42,514 nt of DNA from Escherichia phage vB_EcoP_PAS7: the sequence record OQ921331.1, one strand, 5' to 3'. This document shows, in pieces, positions 1-42,514 of this stretch. The number at the start of each line of letters is the position of its first letter. Within the stretch, counting starts at the first letter, position 1. The notes under the pieces are model-generated. The model ran no database searches. It was not told the DNA's origin and saw only the letters and a program-made list of their open reading frames with translations. A program made the position numbers and the translations under genes.

Positions 1-600
1 ATGGCGGTAGTAAGAAAGCAGCGTAGAGTTGACGGTAAGAAGCAGAACTACTATTGGGATACTGAATTATGTATTGAGGTAGCAGCTCCTGTAAGGAAAA
101 AGCACTATAGCATAGCTAATCCTATGCAAGGCTTGATAGGTTACGCTGTGATGCACGATAGCGAGCTTAAACAAGGTATAACAGACGCGTTTGCTAACTT
201 TAACGGTAGTCAGATGCGTAACGGTTTAACTGGTATCAGTATACCTAAGTTGATTGAGTTAGCAGATACACAACCAGAGCTATATAGTACTGAGCATCCA
301 GAGAGTACTAACCATGCTGCGTATGATGCAGCGCTTACTATGCTTCTAGTATTAGTGCGTGAACGTATCCCTGAATGGGAAGAGGCGTACAGATATGATA
401 TGCATAATAGTGGGTTAAATATCGTTGATTTAATGTGTGAACAAGGCTATGACACTGATAACTATACCGGTGCTATAGCTAATAGTCTTAATCAGGTTTG
501 GAGTGAAGGTAAGCTCTTAGTAGGCACTGAGGCTAACAAGCATTGGCTTAAATCTCAGGGATTTTCTAAACTGCGTTCCCAGCGTAATAGATACATTTGA
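1..600 (+). CDS. hypothetical early protein, possibly 5'-truncated by the window edge; weak DEDD-exonuclease-like motifs
   Basis: ORF track, 199 aa. Contains WDTE and NHAAYDAALTMLL, resembling Exo I (DxE) and Exo III (HxAxxD) motifs of DnaQ-like exonucleases. Motif-level only. Confidence 0.35.
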   Translation: MAVVRKQRRVDGKKQNYYWDTELCIEVAAPVRKKHYSIANPMQGLIGYAVMHDSELKQGITDAFANFNGSQMRNGLTGISIPKLIELADTQPELYSTEHPESTNHAAYDAALTMLLVLVRERIPEWEEAYRYDMHNSGLNIVDLMCEQGYDTDNYTGAIANSLNQVWSEGKLLVGTEANKHWLKSQGFSKLRSQRNRYI

Positions 601-7218: not shown

Positions 7219-7371
7219 ATGTTAAAGTCAGAAGACATTACAGAGCAGGACTACGAGGTTATCCGTGCGATAGCTAATAACCGTAAGCAGGTTAAACGCT
7301 ACACGCTGGATAGCAGTGAGATGATTGTACGAGCAGCACTTAACAGAGCACGGCGCGAGGGGTGGAAATGA
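7219..7371 (+). CDS. small hypothetical protein (50 aa)
   Basis: GGGAGGAAG RBS, ATG at 7219, stop TGA at 7369-7371 overlapping the DNA polymerase start. Confidence 0.35.
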   Translation: MLKSEDITEQDYEVIRAIANNRKQVKRYTLDSSEMIVRAALNRARREGWK

Positions 7372-8582
7372 GCAGCATACTGATTTGGGATATTGAAACG
7401 CAGAACGTACCTTACTATGGCGGGGTTGCTACACCTTACTGCCCAGATAACTACATTGTGGAATCAGGCTTCAGGATTGATAGAACTAATCCAGATGGTA
7501 CGGTGACGTGCAGTGATGTAGGTAGCGTGCGTTACGAGTCGCGGGAGGAGTTCATCTCAGCACCTAGTAGTCAGTGGTTGCCTATTCAGGACGATACTTG
7601 GTTAATGGTAATGCATAACGCCGCATATGAGATTAGCTGGGCGTTGACGTTTGCTAGGGAAGAGTTTGAAGCATTCCTGAAACGGGGAGGGCGCGTATTC
7701 GATACAATGCAAGGCGAGTACATTGCCTCAGACTTCCAAAACCTTTACCCATCATTAGATGAGACGGCTCCTAAGTACGGCGGCAGCCACAAGGTTGACG
7801 GCGTTAAACTGCTATGGCAGCAGGGCGTGTTAACAGCAGATATTGACCCTGTACTGCTGCATGAGTATCTAACAGGGCCAGAAGGTGATATCGTAAACAC
7901 AGCGTTATGCTTCTACGGGCAGTGTGCAGTGTTCGCTGAGCGTGGGCAGATGCCTATGGTCTGGGAAAGGATGGATAGTGTACTGGCCTTAGCCTACTGC
8001 GAGTTCAACGGTGTGTACGTAGACATGCCTACAGCCAGAGCTAACCAGAAGGAGCAGGAGGACGCTATAGCAGAGCTGAAGCAGACGCTGCAAGGCTTCT
8101 TACCTGAACTGCCTGAGGGATTTGAGTTCAACTGGAACAGCGGTTATCATATGAGTGCGTTGGTGTACGGCGGTACGGTTAAGTACAAGTGCAAGGTCCC
8201 GTATGACCCGCCAAAGTTTGTAAAGTTCGATGCCTACCTGGCCGATGTTAAGGGTACTCAGCAATACATAGATGTTAATGATTGGCAAGATAGCTGGACG
8301 TACAGCCGTGAAGTGTTTAAGTCTGGACGTAATAAAGGTCTGCCCAAAGTTTACAAGGTGGAAAGTTCAGAGCAGTCTATGAAGTGGGGTGAGCGCCTGT
8401 ATAAGTTCGAAGGGCTTGTGCACATCCAAGACCTACCAGCAGTATTGCAAGAGAAGTACGCAGAGCGCGGAGAGTTCCGAGGTGCTCAGACATTGGCAGA
8501 TGGTACACCTGTGTTCAGTACAGGGACTGATGCTATGAAAGAACTGGCTAACTATTTTATTGGGATGGAAGAGAATGAGTAA
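7368..8582 (+). CDS. DNA polymerase part I (3'-5' exonuclease domain and N-terminal polymerase region)
   Basis: Exo I motif IWDIETQN near the N-terminus; ends at TAA 8580-8582, overlapping the start of part II in another frame. Confidence 0.7.
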   Translation: MSSILIWDIETQNVPYYGGVATPYCPDNYIVESGFRIDRTNPDGTVTCSDVGSVRYESREEFISAPSSQWLPIQDDTWLMVMHNAAYEISWALTFAREEFEAFLKRGGRVFDTMQGEYIASDFQNLYPSLDETAPKYGGSHKVDGVKLLWQQGVLTADIDPVLLHEYLTGPEGDIVNTALCFYGQCAVFAERGQMPMVWERMDSVLALAYCEFNGVYVDMPTARANQKEQEDAIAELKQTLQGFLPELPEGFEFNWNSGYHMSALVYGGTVKYKCKVPYDPPKFVKFDAYLADVKGTQQYIDVNDWQDSWTYSREVFKSGRNKGLPKVYKVESSEQSMKWGERLYKFEGLVHIQDLPAVLQEKYAERGEFRGAQTLADGTPVFSTGTDAMKELANYFIGMEENE

Positions 8583-9729
8583 CAAGGCTTCGGAGTTCTT
8601 CAAGGCATACAGTGAGATGACCTTGCGTGAGAAAGATTTAGGCTTCTATGAGAAGAAGGAATTTAACAAGGACGGTAGCCTGCGTAAGACTACAGGTATG
8701 CTTCCGTATGTAATCCCTCAGAAGGAAGACGGCAGCGGCATCATTCATCACAGATTGAATCACTGCTCAACCACGACCGGACGACTATCAGCATCTAACC
8801 CGAATATGCAGCAGTTGCCGCGTGAATCTAAGGTTAAGCAGATTCTGCGTAGTCGTTACGGTGAGCAAGGTATGATTGCTCAGTGTGACTACTCAGCTAT
8901 GGAAGTTGTAATGGGCTGTGTAATAACAGGTGATAAGAAACTACTATCCTTGCTTGAAGCTGGTACAGATATGCACTGCTATCGTTTAGCATTCCAAGAG
9001 GGTATGCCTTATGAAGAAGTCTACGAGCTTTGCCATAACCCGGATGCACCTAACCATAAGGAATGGAAGAAGAAACGAACAGCAATCAAAACCTTCAGCT
9101 TCGCAGCGCAGTATGGAGCTTCCGCTAAAGGACTGGCGTTCGCCTCTGGTGCCAGCCTGAAGGACGCTGAGAAGTTCTTAGCTAACGAAGAAGCCCTGTT
9201 CCCTGAATCTATTAAGTACCGTGATGTAATTGCAGCAGAGGTAAATCGTACAGCACTGTTAGAGCCTATGCGCCGCGAGCAATCAGATGATGGTAGCTGG
9301 CGTATCTATCGGGAAGGCTATTTTACTGCTCCTTGTGGTACTCGTTACCGCTTCCGTCAGAAACCTGTATGGCGTGAAGGTAAGCAGGTCATGGACTTTA
9401 AACCTACAGAGATGGCTAACTATCCATTTCAAGGTTCAGGTTCTCTGCTTATGCTTATTGCGATGGGTATGATTCTGCGCGCAGGATTAGCTACGGATTG
9501 GGGTAACGGTAGTTGGTGCTTGTTAGCAACTGTACATGACTCCGTATATTGTGACTGTAAAGATGAGTCAACGGCGAGGGAAGTAGGTCAATTAATTAAG
9601 AAATGTATGGAAGGTGCAAGAGATAGAATGCTGCAACTTTGGCCTAACTTCGGAATACTACAGGACGTTAAATTCCCTGCCGAGTGTGGTATTGGTAAAT
9701 CATTTAAAGAGGAGCAGGTACTTGGCTAA
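8575..9729 (+). CDS. DNA polymerase part II (family A palm/fingers)
   Basis: Motif A CDYSAMEVV, motif B RTAIKTFSFAAQYGAS, motif C VHDSVYCD. ATG at 8575 is in the frame of ORF track 8560..9729. Confidence 0.7.
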   Translation: MSNKASEFFKAYSEMTLREKDLGFYEKKEFNKDGSLRKTTGMLPYVIPQKEDGSGIIHHRLNHCSTTTGRLSASNPNMQQLPRESKVKQILRSRYGEQGMIAQCDYSAMEVVMGCVITGDKKLLSLLEAGTDMHCYRLAFQEGMPYEEVYELCHNPDAPNHKEWKKKRTAIKTFSFAAQYGASAKGLAFASGASLKDAEKFLANEEALFPESIKYRDVIAAEVNRTALLEPMRREQSDDGSWRIYREGYFTAPCGTRYRFRQKPVWREGKQVMDFKPTEMANYPFQGSGSLLMLIAMGMILRAGLATDWGNGSWCLLATVHDSVYCDCKDESTAREVGQLIKKCMEGARDRMLQLWPNFGILQDVKFPAECGIGKSFKEEQVLG

Positions 9730-10225
9730 AGTTACTAAACCTATACCGGAAGGCATACGGGAATTTTGGAGATATGATTCTGAGAGTGGGAAATTAATAT
9801 GCATACAAAACATAAAGCGCACTAAGTACAGTGAAGGCATAGTTGCAGCTAGTCTTACAACTACAGGTAATTATCTAAAGCTGAATTTTAATAAGGTAAG
9901 CTACCTTCAGCATCGGGTAGCATGGTTCCTTTACTATAATGAACAACCTCCTGAAGTTATAGACCACAAGGACGGTAACGGCCTTAACAACGCTATAAAC
10001 AACCTGCGTGCTGCAGATGATGGTTGTAACATGATGGACATTACTGTAACTGCTAAATCCACTACAGGTATTAAAGGTGTCATGCCTGTACGGGGAGGTA
10101 AGCTGTTCCGTGCCGAAGTATGTGTAGATGGTAAGCGCTACCAGAAGCACAGCAAGGACGTAGCTTTCTTAGAGCAGTGGGTACAGGCTAAGCGTAAAGA
10201 ATTACACGGAGAGTTTTATAAATAG
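9722..10225 (+). CDS. HNH-AP2 homing endonuclease (paralog 1 of 3)
   Basis: HNH motif EVIDHKDGNGLNNAINNLRA followed by an AP2-like region; no in-frame ATG, likely TTG start at 9722 with an AAGAGGAG RBS; paralogous to 12767..13219 and 19681..20157. Confidence 0.6.
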   Translation: MAKVTKPIPEGIREFWRYDSESGKLICIQNIKRTKYSEGIVAASLTTTGNYLKLNFNKVSYLQHRVAWFLYYNEQPPEVIDHKDGNGLNNAINNLRAADDGCNMMDITVTAKSTTGIKGVMPVRGGKLFRAEVCVDGKRYQKHSKDVAFLEQWVQAKRKELHGEFYK

Positions 10226-10228
10226 CTG

Positions 10229-10257
10229 TTGACAAGCAGGGATGCTTTCCGTATAGT
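10229..10257. promoter_or_regulatory. sigma70-like promoter P3 (TTGACA-17-TATAGT)
   Basis: -35 at 10229-10234, 17-nt spacer, -10 at 10252-10257. Confidence 0.6.
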
Positions 10258-10344: not shown

Positions 10345-10373
10345 TTGACAAGCAGTAACGAAGTAAGTAAGAT
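10345..10373. promoter_or_regulatory. sigma70-like promoter P4 (TTGACA-17-TAAGAT)
   Basis: -35 at 10345-10350, 17-nt spacer, -10 at 10368-10373; directly precedes element copy 3. Confidence 0.5.
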
Positions 10374-10589: not shown

Positions 10590-10778
10590 ATGAAAGTAAG
10601 AATCATCAATCACGATGCTTATGGTCCTTTCTTAACTGATACATGTAAGGAACTGTACGCAGTAGGTACAGTGCATGAAGTACAAGATTTCTTCCCTGAC
10701 ACGGGGGAGGTTATCTTAGGGTATGAAGATGAAGGATTTACCTTTGATCCATCAGAGTATGAAGTTGTGGAGGAGTAG
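10590..10778 (+). CDS. hypothetical small acidic protein
   Basis: ORF track, 62 aa; AGGAGG RBS; followed by a terminator. Confidence 0.5.
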   Translation: MKVRIINHDAYGPFLTDTCKELYAVGTVHEVQDFFPDTGEVILGYEDEGFTFDPSEYEVVEE

Positions 10779-10782
10779 GTGT

Positions 10783-10809
10783 AGCCCTGCGTAGGAAGGG
10801 CTTTATTAT
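10783..10809 (+). terminator. rho-independent terminator
   Basis: Stem AGCCCT 10783-10788 / AGGGCT 10797-10802, then TTATTAT. Confidence 0.5.
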
Positions 10810-10866
10810 AGCACGAATGCTGAGATTTGTACAGTAATAAATTAATTATTTACATAAGGGTTAAAT

Positions 10867-11612
10867 ATGAACTATTTAGATATCTGCGAGAAGTACAATG
10901 TAGGAAGCCTGCGCGACGCTAACCTGCGCGACGCTGACCTGTACGGCGCTAACCTGTACGGCGCTGACCTGCGCGACGCTAACCTGTACGGCGCTAACCT
11001 GTGCGGCGCTGACCTGCGCGACGCTAACCTGTACGGCGCTAACCTGTGCGGCGCTGACCTGCGCGGCGCTAACCTGCGCGGCGCTAACCTGCGCGGCGCT
11101 AACCTGTACGGCGCTAACCTGCGCGGCGCTAACCTGCGCCTAACCTGCGCGGCGCTAACCTGTACGGCGCTAACCTGCGCGGCGCTAACCTGCGCGGCGC
11201 TAACCTGTGCGGCGCTAACCTGTGCGGCGCTAACCTGCGCGGCGCTAACCTGCGCGGCGCTAACCTGTACGGCGCTAACCTGCGCGACGCTAACCTGCGC
11301 GACGCTGACCTGTGCGGCGCTGACCTGCGCGACGCTGACCTGTGCGGCGCTAACCTGCGCGGCGCTGACCTGCATGGGACTGACTTGATTGTAATTTATG
11401 GGGAACAGTACTTTATTAGCCTATACAAGGGAACAGTACGCGCAGGTTGTCAGTCGCATACGATAGCGGAGTGGCGAAGTTTTAGTAAGGAAGAAGTAAT
11501 TGCTATGGACGGGCGTAATTCTCTTAAATACTACCCACGTCTTTTAGACATCATTGATTTTTACTGTGGTAAGGGCGAGCGTCCTGATTGGGTAATGAAA
11601 ATAAACAAGTAA
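10867..11612 (+). pseudogene. pentapeptide-repeat protein, frame disrupted at about 11139-11141 by a 4-nt indel in the tandem-repeat region
   Basis: Frame 1 reads A(D/N)LXX pentapeptide repeats ([15 protein letters not shown]...) up to 11139. The repeat unit AACCTGCGCGGCGCT is shortened to AACCTGCGCCT at 11131-11141; the repeat frame continues in another frame to the stop at 11612, with a non-repeat C-terminal domain (ORF track 11385..11612). Confidence 0.55.
10921..11370. repeat. tandem 15-bp repeat array (about 30 units, consensus AACCTGCGCGGCGCT)
   Basis: Direct reading: 15-nt units with variants GAC/AAC, TAC/TGC/CGC and GGC/GAC; one truncated unit near 11131-11141. Confidence 0.9.
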
Positions 11613-12766: not shown

Positions 12767-13219
12767 ATGACTGAAGAGTTAATACGCGAATACCTTGCGC
12801 TAGACCCTTCTAGTCCTACTAATCTGAAGTGGATTAAGACTTCTGGCAGCCGGGTTAAGTTAGGGTCTGTGCAAGGTTATCTAAACTCGCATGGTTATGT
12901 TAAGGTTAAACTCAAAGGAAAGGCGCTGTCGCTGCATCGCGCAGTGTTCTTATTACATTATGGATACCTTCCATATGAGGTAGATCATGTAAATAGGGAT
13001 AAGACTGATAACAGACCTGATAATCTTAGAGCAGCAACTAGAAGCTCTAACTGCCATAATAAGAACTGCACGGGATTTAACTTTGATAAGAAGTCACAGA
13101 AGTTTAGAGTCCGTGTGCAAGTAACTACCACTAAGCGAATTACTGTAGGCTGGTATGATAGTCCATTTGAGGCTAGGGCAGCTTACTTAACGTTCAAAAC
13201 AGCTAACAATCTAATCTAA
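12767..13219 (+). CDS. HNH-AP2 homing endonuclease (paralog 2 of 3)
   Basis: EYLALDPSSPTNLKWIK N-terminus, HNH motif VDHVNRDKTDNRPDNLRA, AP2-like C-terminus; close paralog of 19681..20157. Confidence 0.65.
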   Translation: MTEELIREYLALDPSSPTNLKWIKTSGSRVKLGSVQGYLNSHGYVKVKLKGKALSLHRAVFLLHYGYLPYEVDHVNRDKTDNRPDNLRAATRSSNCHNKNCTGFNFDKKSQKFRVRVQVTTTKRITVGWYDSPFEARAAYLTFKTANNLI

Positions 13220-16745: not shown

Positions 16746-19196
16746 ATGAAACACGAATCATTAGAACAGAAAGTAGAACGTCAGGTACAGCTAGAGAAGG
16801 ATTACCGTACACGTAGCCTGAATAAGTCACGTGAGCTTGTACAGAAAGCTATGCAAGCTGGTAATCTTTCAAGCCTGCCTAAGGTATCTCGTATGATTGC
16901 AGCTGCTTACGACACCGTAGCAGCAGGCATTGACGAGATGAAGGCAGAGAAAACAGCAGGCGTAGGCGGCAAGTACCGCAGCGTTATACGTCTGGTTCCT
17001 ACGGATGTACTGACCGTGATGACTTTAACTAAGTGTTTCGATGCCCTCTTTGTATCTGAAGGCGGCAGCTCTCGCGTGAGTGCTGGTACTCTGCTGGCTA
17101 ATATTGGTCGTCAGGTACAGGCAGAAGTCCTAAGCATTCAGCTTGAGACTGTAGCACCTGCATACATGAACCGAGTGTTCGAGTACTTGAAAGAACGTAA
17201 TACTACCAGCCCTTCCCACATCATGAAGACACTGCGCGCTTCAGCTGAGAATGTGCACTTAGGGCATGAGCCGTGGAGCAACTCTCAATGTGTAGCGGTA
17301 GGTAAGCTCCTGCTTCAACCAGCTTGGGAGACGGGCCTGTTCCAGTGGGATAAGGCTACCGATGCCACCCGCATGTCCTACCTTGCACCTGCACCTGAAT
17401 TAGCCGAGCACTTGCAAGAACTGGTAGAAGATGCAGATACAGTAGATATCAAGCCGCCTATGCTGGTTAAGCCTAACCGCCACGATACACTGTTCTCCGG
17501 CGGTTACCTGCTCCCTTCTACCTGTAAGCGTGGTACTTATCACAACCGCCAGATTACTCGCAGCATGAAGCGCGATGTGTCTGACGCATTCAAGGAAGCG
17601 ACTGAACTTAAGTCTGCTCTGAATAAGTCTCAAGAAGTTCCTTACGTAATTAACAAGCAGATTCTTAACCTGATTAATGAGGCGCGTCGTACTGGAGTAA
17701 CTGCCGGTATGCCCAGCGCTTTCCCTGCTCCTAAACCTGAATGGTATCTGGACGGTGTACCTAAAGAAGAGTACACAGAGCGTCAGATGGATGACTTCCA
17801 AACTTGGAAGATGAACATGCGCAACTGGTACATCAATGAGCGTGCAAGGGTAAGTAAGCTGCGTTCCTTGATTTCACTGGTTCAGATTTGCGAAGAGTTT
17901 AAAGATGAAGAAGAGCTGTACTTCCCAACCTGCGTTGACTGGCGCTACCGTCTGTACTTCAAATCAAGCCTGCATCCTCAAGGTTCTGACATGCAAAAAG
18001 CTCTGCTGTCCTTCGGTCGGGCAAAGCCTCTGGGAGAGCGGGGTCTGTTTTGGCTCAAGGTACACGTCGCTACCTGCTATGGTTATGATAAGGCCTTATT
18101 CGAAAAGCGTGCAGCTTGGACTGATGCTAATATCGAGCAGATTCGACTTGTCGCATCAAGTCCGTTTAATGCAGAGGCTTTTAAAAGTGCCGACAGTCCG
18201 TGGTGTTTTCTGGCTGCCTGCATCGACCTCGTTGCTGCTCTTGACTCTGAAAGCCCAGAGCTTTACGAATCGCGGCTTCCGGTGGCTATGGATGCAACCA
18301 ACTCTGGCAGCCAGCACTTCTCAGCTCTACTGCGTGACCCAGTAGGCGGTAAACTTACTAACCTGTTCTGGGAAGGTAACGAAGAGAAAGCGGATATGTA
18401 CATGGACGTTAAGCAGCGTACTGATGCTAAGGTCATCATGGACTTGGACAATCCTGAGTTCGTAGTACAGGCTCAGTTCTGGCGTGAGAACGAGATTACT
18501 CGTAGCATGACCAAGCGCCCTTGCATGACACACGTATACTCTGCAACTGTTCGCTCGTGCTCTGAGTACATCCTCCAGTCTGCGCAGGAGGAAGGCTACG
18601 AAGGCACTGAGGAGTACAGCCTGTTCAAGCTGGCAGGTTACCTGAGTGGACGTATGAAGGCGGCGGTAGAGGACGCTAACCCAGCGGCTACAGCAGCAAT
18701 GAAGTACCTGCAATCCCTGTGCTATAAAGTTCCGGCAGCCAATCACCTGCAATGGAAGACTCCGCTAGGTGGTCTGGTTATTAATCGTTACACTGAGTCT
18801 GAAGAGACTACAGTCAAGGTTAAGAGCATGAACTTATCGCACCTGCTTATCTATAACCGTAACTACGATGTAAACAACAAGCGTAAGGCTAAGTCAGGTA
18901 TCTCCCCTAACTGGATTCACAGCTTAGATGCCACGCACTTGATGATGACTATTAATGCGTTCGAAGGTGATATCATGCCTATTCACGATTCAGTAGCTAC
19001 ACATGCTTGTGATGTAGATGTAATGCAGAAGGCAGTACGCGAGCAGTTCGTGCGCCTGTACACTGAGCACGATGTACTGCAAGAGATTACTGACGCAGCC
19101 GTAGAATGCGGCGCTGACTTGGAAGGTTTAGAAATGCCTGTTAAAGGTAATCTTAATATCCAATTAGTGAAGGAATCCCCGTTCTTCTTCTGCTGA
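16746..19196 (+). CDS. single-subunit DNA-dependent RNA polymerase (T7 RNAP family)
   Basis: 816 aa; DATNSGSQHFSALLRD matches the T7 RNAP catalytic motif DGSCSGIQHFSAMLRD; NWIHSLDATHLMM matches motif C. Placement before the structural genes is typical of phiKMV-like phages. Confidence 0.9.
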   Translation: MKHESLEQKVERQVQLEKDYRTRSLNKSRELVQKAMQAGNLSSLPKVSRMIAAAYDTVAAGIDEMKAEKTAGVGGKYRSVIRLVPTDVLTVMTLTKCFDALFVSEGGSSRVSAGTLLANIGRQVQAEVLSIQLETVAPAYMNRVFEYLKERNTTSPSHIMKTLRASAENVHLGHEPWSNSQCVAVGKLLLQPAWETGLFQWDKATDATRMSYLAPAPELAEHLQELVEDADTVDIKPPMLVKPNRHDTLFSGGYLLPSTCKRGTYHNRQITRSMKRDVSDAFKEATELKSALNKSQEVPYVINKQILNLINEARRTGVTAGMPSAFPAPKPEWYLDGVPKEEYTERQMDDFQTWKMNMRNWYINERARVSKLRSLISLVQICEEFKDEEELYFPTCVDWRYRLYFKSSLHPQGSDMQKALLSFGRAKPLGERGLFWLKVHVATCYGYDKALFEKRAAWTDANIEQIRLVASSPFNAEAFKSADSPWCFLAACIDLVAALDSESPELYESRLPVAMDATNSGSQHFSALLRDPVGGKLTNLFWEGNEEKADMYMDVKQRTDAKVIMDLDNPEFVVQAQFWRENEITRSMTKRPCMTHVYSATVRSCSEYILQSAQEEGYEGTEEYSLFKLAGYLSGRMKAAVEDANPAATAAMKYLQSLCYKVPAANHLQWKTPLGGLVINRYTESEETTVKVKSMNLSHLLIYNRNYDVNNKRKAKSGISPNWIHSLDATHLMMTINAFEGDIMPIHDSVATHACDVDVMQKAVREQFVRLYTEHDVLQEITDAAVECGADLEGLEMPVKGNLNIQLVKESPFFFC

Positions 19197-42021: not shown

Positions 42022-42514
42022 GCTCAGTACTGGCATTATACAAGGCATTACAGGGAATTACAGGGTGCGTGTGTAAACATGCACCTTGGATTTATTATAC
42101 TTACGCGAGGCCCTCCCTCACCCGACCAACGCCCTCTTCCCCCCATAGGGTGGTCTGCTGGGACGTTTCTAGGTCAATAGGGGTGCCGTAGTGCCTATCG
42201 CAGCGGTGTACAGGCCTGTATCTGGGCCTATGCAGCGGTAGTAATGTGGCAGTAACGGCAGTAACAGGGCAAGCTCTGGTGCTCTGTGCTTCTCTTTGTA
42301 GGGGCGCAGGAGAGCTGGCGCTTGCCTATTTTGTTCTTCCTATAGTACGCCTGTGCTCTCCCTTGTTCTCTCCTTGATGTGTCACTGCGCTAGCTCTGCT
42401 TAGCAATGGCTTGCTTCTTTTGTTCTACTGTGCTAGGCTTGGTTTTAATGCAGTGCGCTCTTTAATAATCAGGTAGGTCATATACTATTAATACATTTGC
42501 TTGGTGAGGACACT
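42022..42514. other. non-coding right-end region, candidate genome terminus or packaging region
   Basis: No ORF of 60 aa or more; C-rich tract CCCTCCCTCACCCGACCAACGCCCTCTTCCCCCC; short direct repeats GCAGTAAC. Confidence 0.4.
42064..42095 (+). terminator. putative terminator hairpin after the tail spike gene
   Basis: GGTGCGTG...CATGCACC imperfect stem followed by TTGGATTTATTAT. Confidence 0.35.

What the first reader, a model, noticed from the sequence alone, without database searches (positions are those of the whole stretch)
10867..11612. Early pentapeptide-repeat gene built from about 30 tandem 15-bp units and broken by a 4-nt indel
The ORF encodes textbook A(D/N)LXX pentapeptide repeats from perfectly tandem 15-nt units. 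Pentapeptide-repeat proteins form right-handed quadrilateral beta-helices, and some (Qnr, MfpA) act as DNA mimics. In a phage early region, next to host promoters, that makes a DNA-mimic anti-defence or topoisomerase-targeting role plausible, analogous in logic to T7 Ocr; this is inference. At 11131-11141 one unit is shortened by 4 nt, so the ORF track frame exits into LTCAAL... while the repeat frame continues to a distinct C-terminal domain ending at 11612. This is either an assembly or sequencing slip, a genuinely inactivated gene, or a slippage-prone contingency locus.
Basis: partly seen in the sequence, partly recalled or inferred. Interest (0 to 1): 0.75.

Follow-up and report, generated by a model that had tools for sequence, protein, structure and literature searches.

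The report
Phage pentapeptide-repeat anti-defence gene, frame broken
This is the coliphage PAS7 copy of a widespread phage gene for a beta-helix protein that, in a Vibrio phage relative, counters a bacterial suicide defence; the break in its reading frame is an exact 56-base duplication that most likely arose during genome assembly, not in the phage.

Summary
Window 10908-11373 contains 31 tandem 15-nt units that encode A(N/D)L(R/Y/C)(G/D). The frame is lost at 11139/11140, and a second frame continues to a conserved 75-aa C-terminal domain ending at 11612.

The window is Escherichia phage vB_EcoP_PAS7 (Slopekvirinae). The gene belongs to a known phage family: P22-like orf232 ("PipB3"), epsilon34 gp42 and Vibrio phage 24 gp60. 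Syntenic orthologues in the closest relatives are intact. Gp60 is 55% identical. In a preprint, deleting it sensitised the phage to the RexAB-like abortive-infection system Sucellos, and escape mutations map to it. An anti-defence role is therefore supported by homology.

The DNA-mimic and gyrase idea is not supported. The protein is close to neutral, with net charge about -1 to +3, and it scores far below the Qnr and MfpA family cut-offs.

The "4-nt indel" is equally an exact 56-nt head-to-tail duplication (11084-11139 = 11140-11195) with no flanking microhomology. The array is 69% GC, the genome was assembled from Nextera 2x150 reads, and the record has been re-oriented. The same array needed Sanger correction in phage 24 and breaks many Salmonella assemblies. 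My estimates are about 65% assembly artefact, about 30% recent real mutation, and about 5% programmed or contingency switching.

Verdict: a new member of a known kind, of modest interest.

The parts
10783..10802 (+). Terminator-like hairpin (AGCCCT...AGGGCT followed by a T-run) directly upstream of the gene
   Evidence: Consensus scan. Epsilon34 has an annotated weak terminator at the same relative position before gp42.
10856..10860 (+). Shine-Dalgarno-like AAGGG, 6 nt before the ATG at 10867
   Evidence: Read directly from the sequence.
10867..11139 (+). In-frame 5' part of the gene: N-terminal cap [14 protein letters not shown] plus the first 15 pentapeptide units
   Evidence: The N-terminus is conserved in the orthologues of phage P64441 (MNYQEICEKYKLG) and metagenome phage L003 (MNYLNICKQYNVE). 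Pfam PF00805 E = 1.2e-29.
10908..11373 (+). Array of 31.3 tandem 15-nt units, consensus GCTAACCTGCGCGGC = ANLRG, 69% GC
   Evidence: TRF. Unit table. All 33 departures from the consensus are transitions at nt 4, 10, 11 and 14. GC content.
11084..11139 (+). First copy of the exact 56-nt tandem duplication that breaks the 15-nt register
   Evidence: 56/56 identical to 11140-11195. The match ends exactly at the copy boundaries, so there is no flanking microhomology.
11140..11195 (+). Second copy of the 56-nt duplication. The junction 12-mer CTGCGCCTAACC starts at 11134 and is unique in the genome.
   Evidence: Deleting this copy restores a 229-aa ORF.
11140..11388 (+). Out-of-frame tail of the 173-aa ORF as deposited (LTCAA repeats, stop TGA at 11386-11388)
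   Evidence: It has no family hit of its own.
11133..11384 (+). Frame-0 continuation of the pentapeptide array (16 units). It contains no ATG, GTG or TTG start codon.
   Evidence: Pfam PF00805 E = 2.8e-31. AlphaFold2 pLDDT 90-96.
11385..11612 (+). Conserved 75-aa C-terminal alpha/beta domain, annotated in GenBank as a separate hypothetical protein. Its TTG start overlaps the TGA stop of the upstream ORF.
   Evidence: P0001. phrog_37032 E = 2e-32. Family-invariant residues are present (Y9, G21, C22, W30; M41, D42 and G43 nearly so). AlphaFold2 pLDDT 88. No PDB relative.

Best explanation
Window 10867-11612 is a single gene of phage vB_EcoP_PAS7. It encodes a short N-terminal cap, a right-handed pentapeptide beta-helix of about 28-32 repeats, and a conserved 75-aa C-terminal alpha/beta domain.

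The gene belongs to a phage accessory-gene family that includes P22-like orf232 ("PipB3"), epsilon34 gp42 and Vibrio phage 24 gp60. One member of this family has been shown genetically to counteract a RexAB-like abortive-infection system.

Inferred mechanism: the conserved C-terminal domain provides the constant function, either binding a partner or mediating oligomerisation. The beta-helix provides a rigid surface whose three outward-facing positions (N/D, R/Y/C/S, G/D) and whose length change rapidly, through gain, loss and exchange of 15-nt units. This re-tunes recognition of a host defence component.

The frame break in the deposited sequence is an exact 56-nt head-to-tail duplication that is out of register with the 15-nt period. 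It is most likely an untrimmed overlap or mis-join produced when a short-read contig was closed and re-oriented. The real phage would then carry an intact gene.
For: Family membership is shown. The syntenic orthologue in phage P64441 is intact (193 aa, 20 repeats), as is the one in metagenome phage L003 (127 aa). The C-terminal domain is 53-80% identical to those of P22-like, Edwardsiella, Vibrio and Providencia phage proteins. BLASTP against phage 24 gp60 gives 55% identity over 136 aa, E = 2e-41.

Function comes from the literature. Deleting 24_60 strongly sensitised phage 24 to Sucellos, and all 6 escapers carried Y112R plus N110N/N115D in 24_60. The pattern N-x-Y-x-x-N occurs in gp60 only inside an ANLYG-AN repeat. 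I infer from this that the adaptive changes are at outward-facing repeat positions.

Hypervariability is shown. There are 0-33 units (median 16) in the 73 of 87 related loci whose array is not cut by a contig edge. Synonymous sites are homogenised within each lineage but differ between lineages: GCC..GGT in Salmonella phages, GCT..GGC in the PAS7 clade, GCA..CTA in Vibrio phages. Phages L and ST64T are more than 99.9% identical yet differ by one 15-bp unit. In Salmonella Pullorum prophages, 7-27 units were reported.

Evidence for an artefact is circumstantial:
- The duplication is exact and has no microhomology.
- Both possible repairs give a full-length ORF with all invariant residues.
- The genome came from Nextera XT 2x150 reads assembled with MIRA.
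- The record starts at an ATG and has no terminal repeats, so it was re-oriented.
- The array is 69% GC against 47% for the genome.
- The 24_60 array "was difficult to assemble" from Nextera reads and had to be corrected by Sanger sequencing.
- At least 14 IMG/VR loci and hundreds of Salmonella "partial" proteins end inside the array at contig edges.
Against: No reads are available, so the artefact cannot be demonstrated. As assembled, every 75-mer of the array is unique and the longest internal exact repeat is 63 nt. In principle, 150-nt reads could therefore support the deposited sequence.

An in-register 60-nt duplication followed by a real 4-nt deletion would give the same sequence. An in-register 45-nt duplication does exist elsewhere in the array.

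The anti-defence function rests on one homologue in a different host, on one preprint, and on genetic evidence only. The molecular target and the role of the C-terminal domain are unknown. It is also unknown whether PAS7 hosts carry a RexAB/Sucellos-like system.
Confidence: 0.55

Rival explanations
1. The break is real. A recent mutation, either a 56-nt out-of-register duplication or a 4-nt deletion, inactivated a dispensable accessory gene in the PAS7 stock or in its natural lineage. The locus is a young pseudogene.
For: The deposited array is internally resolvable by 150-nt reads, since every 75-mer is unique. Accessory genes of this family are absent from many related phages: only 55 of 50,697 phage records have the domain. 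Repeat arrays are mutation hot spots. The absence of further decay fits a very recent event.
Against: Slippage in this array is expected to stay in register, and the junction has no microhomology. Every syntenic orthologue examined is intact. Only 1 of 87 other loci is out of frame, and that one looks like consensus error. There is direct precedent for mis-assembly of this array from the same library type.
Confidence: 0.3
2. The split is functional. It could be a programmed ribosomal frameshift or phase-variable contingency switch. Alternatively it could yield two products: a 173-aa protein with a truncated helix, and a free 75-aa C-terminal domain made by termination-reinitiation at the overlapping TTGA (11385-11388).
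For: The TTG start at 11385 overlaps the TGA stop at 11386-11388, with a weak GGGA 5 nt upstream. Stand-alone C-terminal-domain proteins of 70-75 aa exist in public data (P0152, P0210). Unit number is polymorphic.
Against: There is no slippery heptamer and no homopolymer run in the ORF. A 15-nt unit is divisible by 3, so unit slippage cannot switch the frame. Out-of-frame copies are very rare. The TTGA overlap is not conserved in orthologues. The LTCAA tail matches no family. The stand-alone proteins may themselves be fragments from short contigs.
Confidence: 0.05
3. Alternative mechanism, whatever the cause of the break: the protein is a DNA mimic in the manner of MfpA/Qnr or Ocr. It would bind gyrase or topoisomerase IV, or restriction enzymes.
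For: It has the same fold as MfpA, Qnr, AlbG and EfsQnr (Foldseek hits). With 28-32 repeats, the helix is about the length of MfpA's. In a T4-like Providencia phage the homologue lies about 1.5 kb from a topoisomerase gene, and in ST64T it lies next to ral.
Against: Net charge is +2.6 at pI 8.3 for the 249-aa repair. The helix alone carries about -1 in the 229-aa repair. Central coils carry +2 to +3 each. Homologues range only from -2 to -5, whereas known DNA mimics are strongly acidic (established knowledge). NCBIfam scores are far below cut-offs: Qnr 61 against 240, MfpA 69 against 360. The array is uninterrupted, so there are no Qnr-type loops. The C-terminal domain is unrelated to the short dimerisation helix of MfpA or Qnr. 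The only experimental target known for the family is an abortive-infection system.
Confidence: 0.1

Closest known systems
Vibrio phage 24 gp60 (24_60; SBVc24_0060, AIA08749.1), a genetic inhibitor of the RexAB-like Sucellos (SclAB) abortive-infection system (bioRxiv 10.1101/2024.07.02.601686)
   Same: It has the same architecture: a cap, an A(N/D)L(R/Y)G array built from tandem 15-nt units, and the same C-terminal domain. Identity is 55% over 136 aa, E = 2e-41. It is also an accessory gene among early and DNA-metabolism genes, and its array is also hard to assemble from Nextera reads.
   Different: The host is Vibrio and the phage type differs. Its N-terminal cap is longer (MNINDVLTQHSLFISSMGTDG), and the PAS7 cap is shorter. 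The PAS7 copy is out of frame as deposited. Activity against Sucellos or any E. coli system has not been tested for PAS7.
P22-like phage orf232 (phages L, ST64T, ST104 orf19, epsilon34 gp42), named "PipB3" in the S. Pullorum prophage phiSPU1
   Same: Same family, with 62-67% identity in the C-terminal region. It shows the same hypervariable unit number: a 15-bp difference between phages L and ST64T, and 7-27 units among Pullorum strains. It is expressed from an early operon.
   Different: These are temperate phages, and the gene sits in the PL operon just after N or ral. Synonymous codons in the unit differ (GCC..GGT). The N-terminal cap differs. The T3SS-effector reading implied by the PipB3 name is an untested annotation: the PipB score is 115 bits against a cut-off of 274.
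Qnr, MfpA, AlbG and McbG topoisomerase-interacting pentapeptide repeat proteins
   Same: All share the right-handed quadrilateral beta-helix built from A(D/N)LXX repeats, and the helix length is comparable.
   Different: The PAS7 protein falls below all family cut-offs. It has no loop insertions, is not acidic, and has a different and much larger C-terminal domain. There is no evidence that it interacts with gyrase.
Ocr and ArdA DNA-mimic anti-restriction proteins
   Same: Only the general logic is shared: a small early phage or plasmid protein that disarms a host defence.
   Different: The fold is unrelated, there is no sequence similarity (no Pfam hit), and the charge character is opposite.

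Membership tests
Phage pentapeptide-repeat plus C-terminal-domain family (orf232 / gp60 / phrog_37032) | Conserved C-terminal domain of about 75 aa, with the motif Y..I...V.AGCQ.H...[29 protein letters not shown] | tested here: met
   phrog_37032 E = 2e-32. Family-invariant residues are present in alignments A1-A3 (Y9, G21, C22, W30; M41, D42 and G43 nearly so). Identity to family members is 53-80%.
Phage pentapeptide-repeat plus C-terminal-domain family (orf232 / gp60 / phrog_37032) | An uninterrupted A(N/D)LXX array encoded by near-identical tandem 15-nt units, placed directly N-terminal to that domain | tested here: met
   Unit-to-unit nucleotide identity is 0.83-0.85, as in other members. 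The only departure is the register break at 11139/11140.
Phage pentapeptide-repeat plus C-terminal-domain family (orf232 / gp60 / phrog_37032) | A single continuous ORF | tested here: not met
   In the deposited sequence the frame is broken. It is restored by removing 56 nt or adding 4 nt. Whether the phage itself is broken cannot be tested here.
Phage pentapeptide-repeat plus C-terminal-domain family (orf232 / gp60 / phrog_37032) | Counteracts a RexAB-like (Sucellos) abortive-infection system | not testable with these tools
   Shown genetically only for phage 24 gp60.
Qnr / MfpA family | Score above the NCBIfam equivalog cut-off | tested here: not met
   Qnr 61.2 bits against 240. MfpA 68.8 bits against 360.
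Qnr / MfpA family | Pentapeptide right-handed beta-helix fold | tested here: met
   PF00805 E = 1e-30. AlphaFold2 model and Foldseek hits to NP275, MfpA and QnrB1.
Qnr / MfpA family | Electronegative, DNA-like surface (and, in Qnr, loops A and B) | tested here: not met
   Net charge +2.6 at pI 8.3, with central coils at +2 to +3. The array has no insertions. Sequence-level charge is only a proxy for surface potential.
Qnr / MfpA family | Binds or protects DNA gyrase | not testable with these tools
   No data available.
Phase-variable contingency locus (simple-sequence-repeat switch) | Gain or loss of a repeat unit changes the reading frame or promoter spacing | tested here: not met
   The unit is 15 nt, divisible by 3. 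The break does not involve a whole unit.
Phase-variable contingency locus (simple-sequence-repeat switch) | ON and OFF frames are both common among close relatives | tested here: not met
   Only 1 of 87 related loci is out of frame (L024), and that copy has three scattered 1-2-nt deletions typical of consensus error.
Programmed -1 ribosomal frameshift | A slippery X XXY YYZ heptamer in the zero frame at the shift site | tested here: not met
   None found between 10867 and 11388, and no homopolymer run of 5 or more in the repeat.
PipB / PipB2 type III effectors (suggested by the name PipB3) | Score above the NCBIfam cut-off | tested here: not met
   PipB 115.5 bits against 274. PipB2 100.9 bits against 354. 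The matches are confined to the repeats.

The most novel reading that the evidence does not exclude
The 15-nt array may act as a self-templating diversification cassette for an anti-abortive-infection protein. Units differ only at the four nucleotides that set the three outward-facing residues, and they are gained, lost and exchanged by intra-array recombination. A phage could then re-tune the helix surface in a single step. The phage 24 escapers, which carry three linked changes within six codons, look like such a unit replacement. In this reading the PAS7 break is real, and it leaves a truncated helix plus a separately translated C-terminal domain. That would point to modular use of the two halves, consistent with stand-alone C-terminal-domain proteins and with fusions of the domain to other beta-solenoids.
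Probability: 0.12. Interest if true: 0.65.

Novelty: new member of a known kind. Interest (0 to 1): 0.3.

Why it matters
For PAS7 itself, the practical point is that the GenBank record (OQ921331) probably carries a 56-bp assembly error that splits one gene into two "hypothetical proteins". The same array is a systematic trap in short-read phage and prophage assemblies.

More broadly, this places a virulent phiKMV-like coliphage in a family whose Vibrio member disarms a RexAB-like suicide system. How phages evade RexAB-type exclusion is a long-standing question. The family offers a tractable entry point, with a conserved domain of unknown fold joined to a beta-helix whose surface and length evolve unusually fast. 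None of this is unique to the PAS7 copy.

Tried and rejected
- **Close relatives of the locus.** I looked for near-identical PAS7 sequences to compare the array. An exact 34-mer scan of IMG/VR found none. Megablast of the locus against phages gave only 75% matches, in the neighbouring phosphoesterase gene.
- **Spurious profile hits.** WD40 and FG-GAP proteins in the phmmer list (P0170, P0275) are repeat artefacts and I discarded them.
- **Programmed frameshift.** No signals were found.
- **CefA resemblance.** The match to the "Cys-every-fifth" RiPP peptide CefA (NF038108) falls at residues 43-74, within the in-frame pentapeptide repeats. It stays below the 30-bit cut-off both in the repaired protein (25.3 bits) and in the 173-aa ORF (16.7 bits). 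The LTCAA tail has no hit of its own.
- **Structured RNA.** Rfam found nothing in the whole window.
- **Minus-strand ORF.** ORF 10872-11375 is only the mirror image of the repeat.
- **A failed junction screen.** A regex search for similar out-of-register junctions in other loci returned only in-frame C-A-D-L codons. It was uninformative.
- **Corrected 24_60 sequence.** The supplementary tables of the integron preprint do not contain it.
- **Literature.** Searches for phage pentapeptide proteins as DNA mimics or gyrase inhibitors found only annotation-level statements.

Full report
**1. What is in the sequence**

Window 10908-11373 is an array of 31.3 head-to-tail 15-nt units (TRF score 659, 87% matches). 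The ORF that starts at ATG 10867 has an AAGGG Shine-Dalgarno-like site 6 nt upstream. It encodes [14 protein letters not shown] followed by 15 units of A(N/D)L(R/Y/C)(G/D). At 11139/11140 one unit is 11 nt long. After that point the ORF reads LTCAA repeats to a TGA at 11386-11388. Frame 0 is open from 11133, carries 16 more perfect pentapeptides, and runs into a 75-aa non-repeat domain ending at 11612. Pfam PF00805 hits both halves at about E = 1e-30. An AlphaFold2 model of the frame-0 ORF has one strand per five residues at pLDDT 90-96, and it superposes on the NP275 pentapeptide protein at 0.4 A rmsd. The only numerical slip is that the 4-nt repair gives 249 aa, not 248.

**2. What genome and what gene**

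The 75-aa ORF is an exact match to a hypothetical protein of Escherichia phage vB_EcoP_PAS7 on a 42,514-bp contig, which is the length of the window. PAS7 is a lytic podophage of the Slopekvirinae. It was sequenced with Nextera XT and MiSeq 2x150 and assembled with MIRA (PMC11522302).

The gene lies in the DNA-metabolism cluster. Upstream are the two DNA-polymerase ORFs, an HNH endonuclease and a 62-aa ORF. Downstream are a metallophosphoesterase, another HNH endonuclease and eventually the phage RNA polymerase at 16746-19196. Two strong sigma-70-like promoters lie at 10229 and 10345, and a terminator-like hairpin lies at 10783-10802, directly before the gene. "Early/middle, probably transcribed by host RNA polymerase" is fair. 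"Early region" is imprecise.

The nearest sequenced relative is Escherichia phage vB_EcoP_P64441, at about 78% nucleotide identity. It has the same gene order and an intact 193-aa orthologue with 20 repeats. A related 42.5-kb metagenome phage has an intact 127-aa orthologue.

**3. The family**

tblastn and profile searches show the same architecture (cap, pentapeptide array, this C-terminal domain) in many phages:
- P22-like phages: ST64T orf-232, phage L, ST104 orf19 and epsilon34 gp42. These lie in the PL operon next to N, ral and gene 17.
- Edwardsiella, Vibrio and a T4-like Providencia phage.
- Large numbers of Salmonella, Cronobacter and Yersinia prophages.

At 50% clustering there are 154 representative clusters. 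The C-terminal domain also follows other beta-solenoids (YdcK/LbH-like, and a CKGNLD repeat) and occurs alone in 70-75-aa proteins. It is strongly conserved; Y9, G21, C22, W30 and D42 are invariant even among the most divergent members aligned. It folds confidently as a four-stranded meander plus helices (pLDDT 88). It has no relative among solved structures and no model in Pfam, NCBIfam or PADLOC. In BFVD it matches only the C-termini of other phage pentapeptide proteins.

**4. How the array evolves**

In the 73 of 87 related loci whose array is not cut by a contig edge, my scan counted from 0 to 33 pentapeptide units, with a median of 16. Within an array, the synonymous positions are identical in nearly every unit. 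Between lineages they differ: GCC-RAC-CTG-YRC-GRT in Salmonella-type phages, GCT...GGC in the PAS7 clade, and GCA...CTA in Vibrio phages. This is the signature of concerted evolution.

In PAS7, all 33 departures from the unit consensus are transitions at nt 4, 10, 11 and 14. These change only residues i-1, i+1 and i+2. By the established geometry of the pentapeptide fold, those residues face outward.

Published comparisons agree. Phages L and ST64T are more than 99.9% identical yet differ by one 15-bp unit. The S. Pullorum prophage copy, named "PipB3", has 7-27 units among strains.

**5. Function**

A preprint on Vibrio cholerae integron cassettes (10.1101/2024.07.02.601686) reports the following for gene 24_60 of Vibrio phage 24, "a pentapeptide repeats containing-protein":
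- It is mutated (Y112R with N110N/N115D) in all six escapers of the RexAB-like abortive-infection system Sucellos.
- Deleting it makes the phage highly sensitive to Sucellos.
- The authors postulate that it is an anti-defence protein.

24_60 is SBVc24_0060, one of my tblastn hits. It is 55% identical to the repaired PAS7 protein over 136 aa, including the whole C-terminal domain (E = 2e-41). The pattern N-x-Y-x-x-N occurs in gp60 only inside an ANLYG-AN repeat. I therefore infer that the adaptive changes lie at outward-facing repeat positions. Three linked changes within six codons also look like replacement of a unit, not independent point mutations.

Taken together, the best-supported mechanism is that the conserved C-terminal domain supplies a constant function and the rapidly changing beta-helix surface supplies specificity in a conflict with a host defence. 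Only the genetics in phage 24 are shown. The division of labour and its transfer to PAS7 are inference.

**6. DNA mimic or gyrase?**

The fold is that of MfpA and Qnr, but the resemblance ends there:
- NCBIfam scores are far below cut-offs: Qnr 61 against 240, MfpA 69 against 360.
- The array has no loop insertions.
- The repaired protein has pI 8.3 and net charge +2.6. Central coils carry +2 to +3 and only the end coils are acidic.
- Homologues range only from about -2 to -5.

Known DNA mimics are strongly acidic (established knowledge). I rate this mechanism at about 0.1.

**7. The frame break**

The 4-nt "deletion" is equally an exact head-to-tail duplication of 56 nt. Positions 11084-11139 equal 11140-11195 at 56 of 56 bases, and the match stops exactly at the copy boundaries, so there is no flanking microhomology. 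Removing one copy gives a perfectly in-register array of 28 units and an intact 229-aa ORF. Inserting GGCG gives 32 units and 249 aa. Both repairs retain every invariant C-terminal residue. The event is therefore either very recent or not real.

Several lines favour an artefact:
- An untrimmed overlap at a contig join produces exactly this kind of perfect duplication of arbitrary length.
- The record starts at the ATG of an ORF and has no terminal repeats, so the assembly was circularised and re-opened.
- The array is 69% GC in a 47% GC genome.
- The phage 24 authors, using the same library chemistry, state that this repeat "was difficult to assemble". They had to correct their reference by PCR and Sanger sequencing. 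The deposited gp60 has only 8 units, while their residue numbering requires many more.
- At least 14 IMG/VR loci begin inside the array at a contig edge, and hundreds of Salmonella proteins of this family are "partial".
- The only other out-of-frame copy among 87 loci (L024) has three scattered 1-2-nt deletions typical of consensus error.

Some points argue against an artefact. As deposited, every 75-mer of the array is unique, so 150-nt reads could support it. An in-register 60-nt duplication followed by a true 4-nt deletion cannot be excluded, and an in-register 45-nt duplication is present elsewhere in the array.

My estimates are about 65% artefact and about 30% real recent inactivation. 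Programmed frameshifting or contingency switching gets about 5%. There is no slippery heptamer or homopolymer, and a 15-nt unit cannot toggle the frame.

**8. Verdict**

The gene is a new member of a known, still mechanistically uncharacterised, phage anti-defence family. Its apparent disruption is most likely an assembly error, which one read-mapping check or one PCR would settle. Interest is modest for this locus. The family itself deserves experimental attention for its conserved domain of unknown fold and its self-homogenising, surface-variable beta-helix.

Noticed in passing
window 10229-10257 and 10345-10373: Two near-consensus sigma-70-type promoters (TTGACA-17-TATAGT at 11/12 matches, TTGACA-17-TAAGAT at 10/12) lie in tandem in a 360-bp gap after the HNH endonuclease gene, in the middle of the DNA-metabolism cluster. 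They may drive the 62-aa ORF at 10590-10778 and the pentapeptide gene.
   Followed up: partly
window 10783-10802; L088 2265-2288: A terminator-like hairpin lies immediately upstream of the pentapeptide gene in PAS7. Epsilon34 has an annotated weak terminator in the same position before gp42. The parallel could be coincidence, or it could reflect gated expression shared across the family.
   Followed up: no
window 1-600 and 42395-42514: The record begins exactly at the ATG of a 199-aa ORF and has no terminal repeat, although phiKMV-like phages normally have direct terminal repeats. The deposited genome is therefore a re-opened circularised assembly, and the true ends are unknown.
   Followed up: partly
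L024 4106-4165 (IMGVR_UViG_2909216862_000002): This Salmonella prophage copy of the gene has three small deletions (-2, -1, -1 nt) within 45 nt in the middle of its array. They shift the frame by a net 4 nt and look like consensus errors in an isolate genome.
   Followed up: partly
L086 2351-2773 (Vibrio phage 24, KJ572844.2): The deposited 24_60 gene has 8 repeat units (140 aa). The published escaper residues N110, Y112 and N115 fit only a repeat unit, which implies that the true gene has about 14 more units. The GenBank array is probably collapsed.
   Followed up: partly
P0030, P0007, P0008 and other proteins: Hundreds of Salmonella, Cronobacter and Yersinia proteins of this family are annotated "partial" and start inside the repeat (one cluster has 434 member sequences). 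Short-read assemblies routinely break at this array. Very short full-length forms with 2-4 repeats may be collapsed assemblies.
   Followed up: partly
P0152, P0210, P0201, P0249, P0256: The C-terminal domain also occurs alone (70-75 aa) and downstream of non-pentapeptide beta-solenoids (YdcK/LbH-like, and a CKGNLD repeat). It appears to be a mobile module that prefers solenoid partners.
   Followed up: partly
L002 2608-3306 (ST64T orf-232): The annotated start of orf-232 overlaps ral and adds 48 non-conserved residues. Comparison with the many prophage homologues places the real start at MNSADLSKILEEHK, giving 184 aa.
   Followed up: partly
window 7362-8582, 8560-9729, 9614-10225, 12767-13219: The DNA polymerase is encoded as two overlapping ORFs, as in phage P64441. 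Two HNH endonuclease genes flank the pentapeptide/phosphoesterase segment, and the first one overlaps the polymerase 3' end if its GTG start is used.
   Followed up: no
window 10963-11052: Inside the array there is a perfect in-register 45-nt (3-unit) tandem duplication, [15 protein letters not shown] twice, with an exact run of 62 nt at offset 45. It shows that multi-unit duplications happen naturally here.
   Followed up: partly
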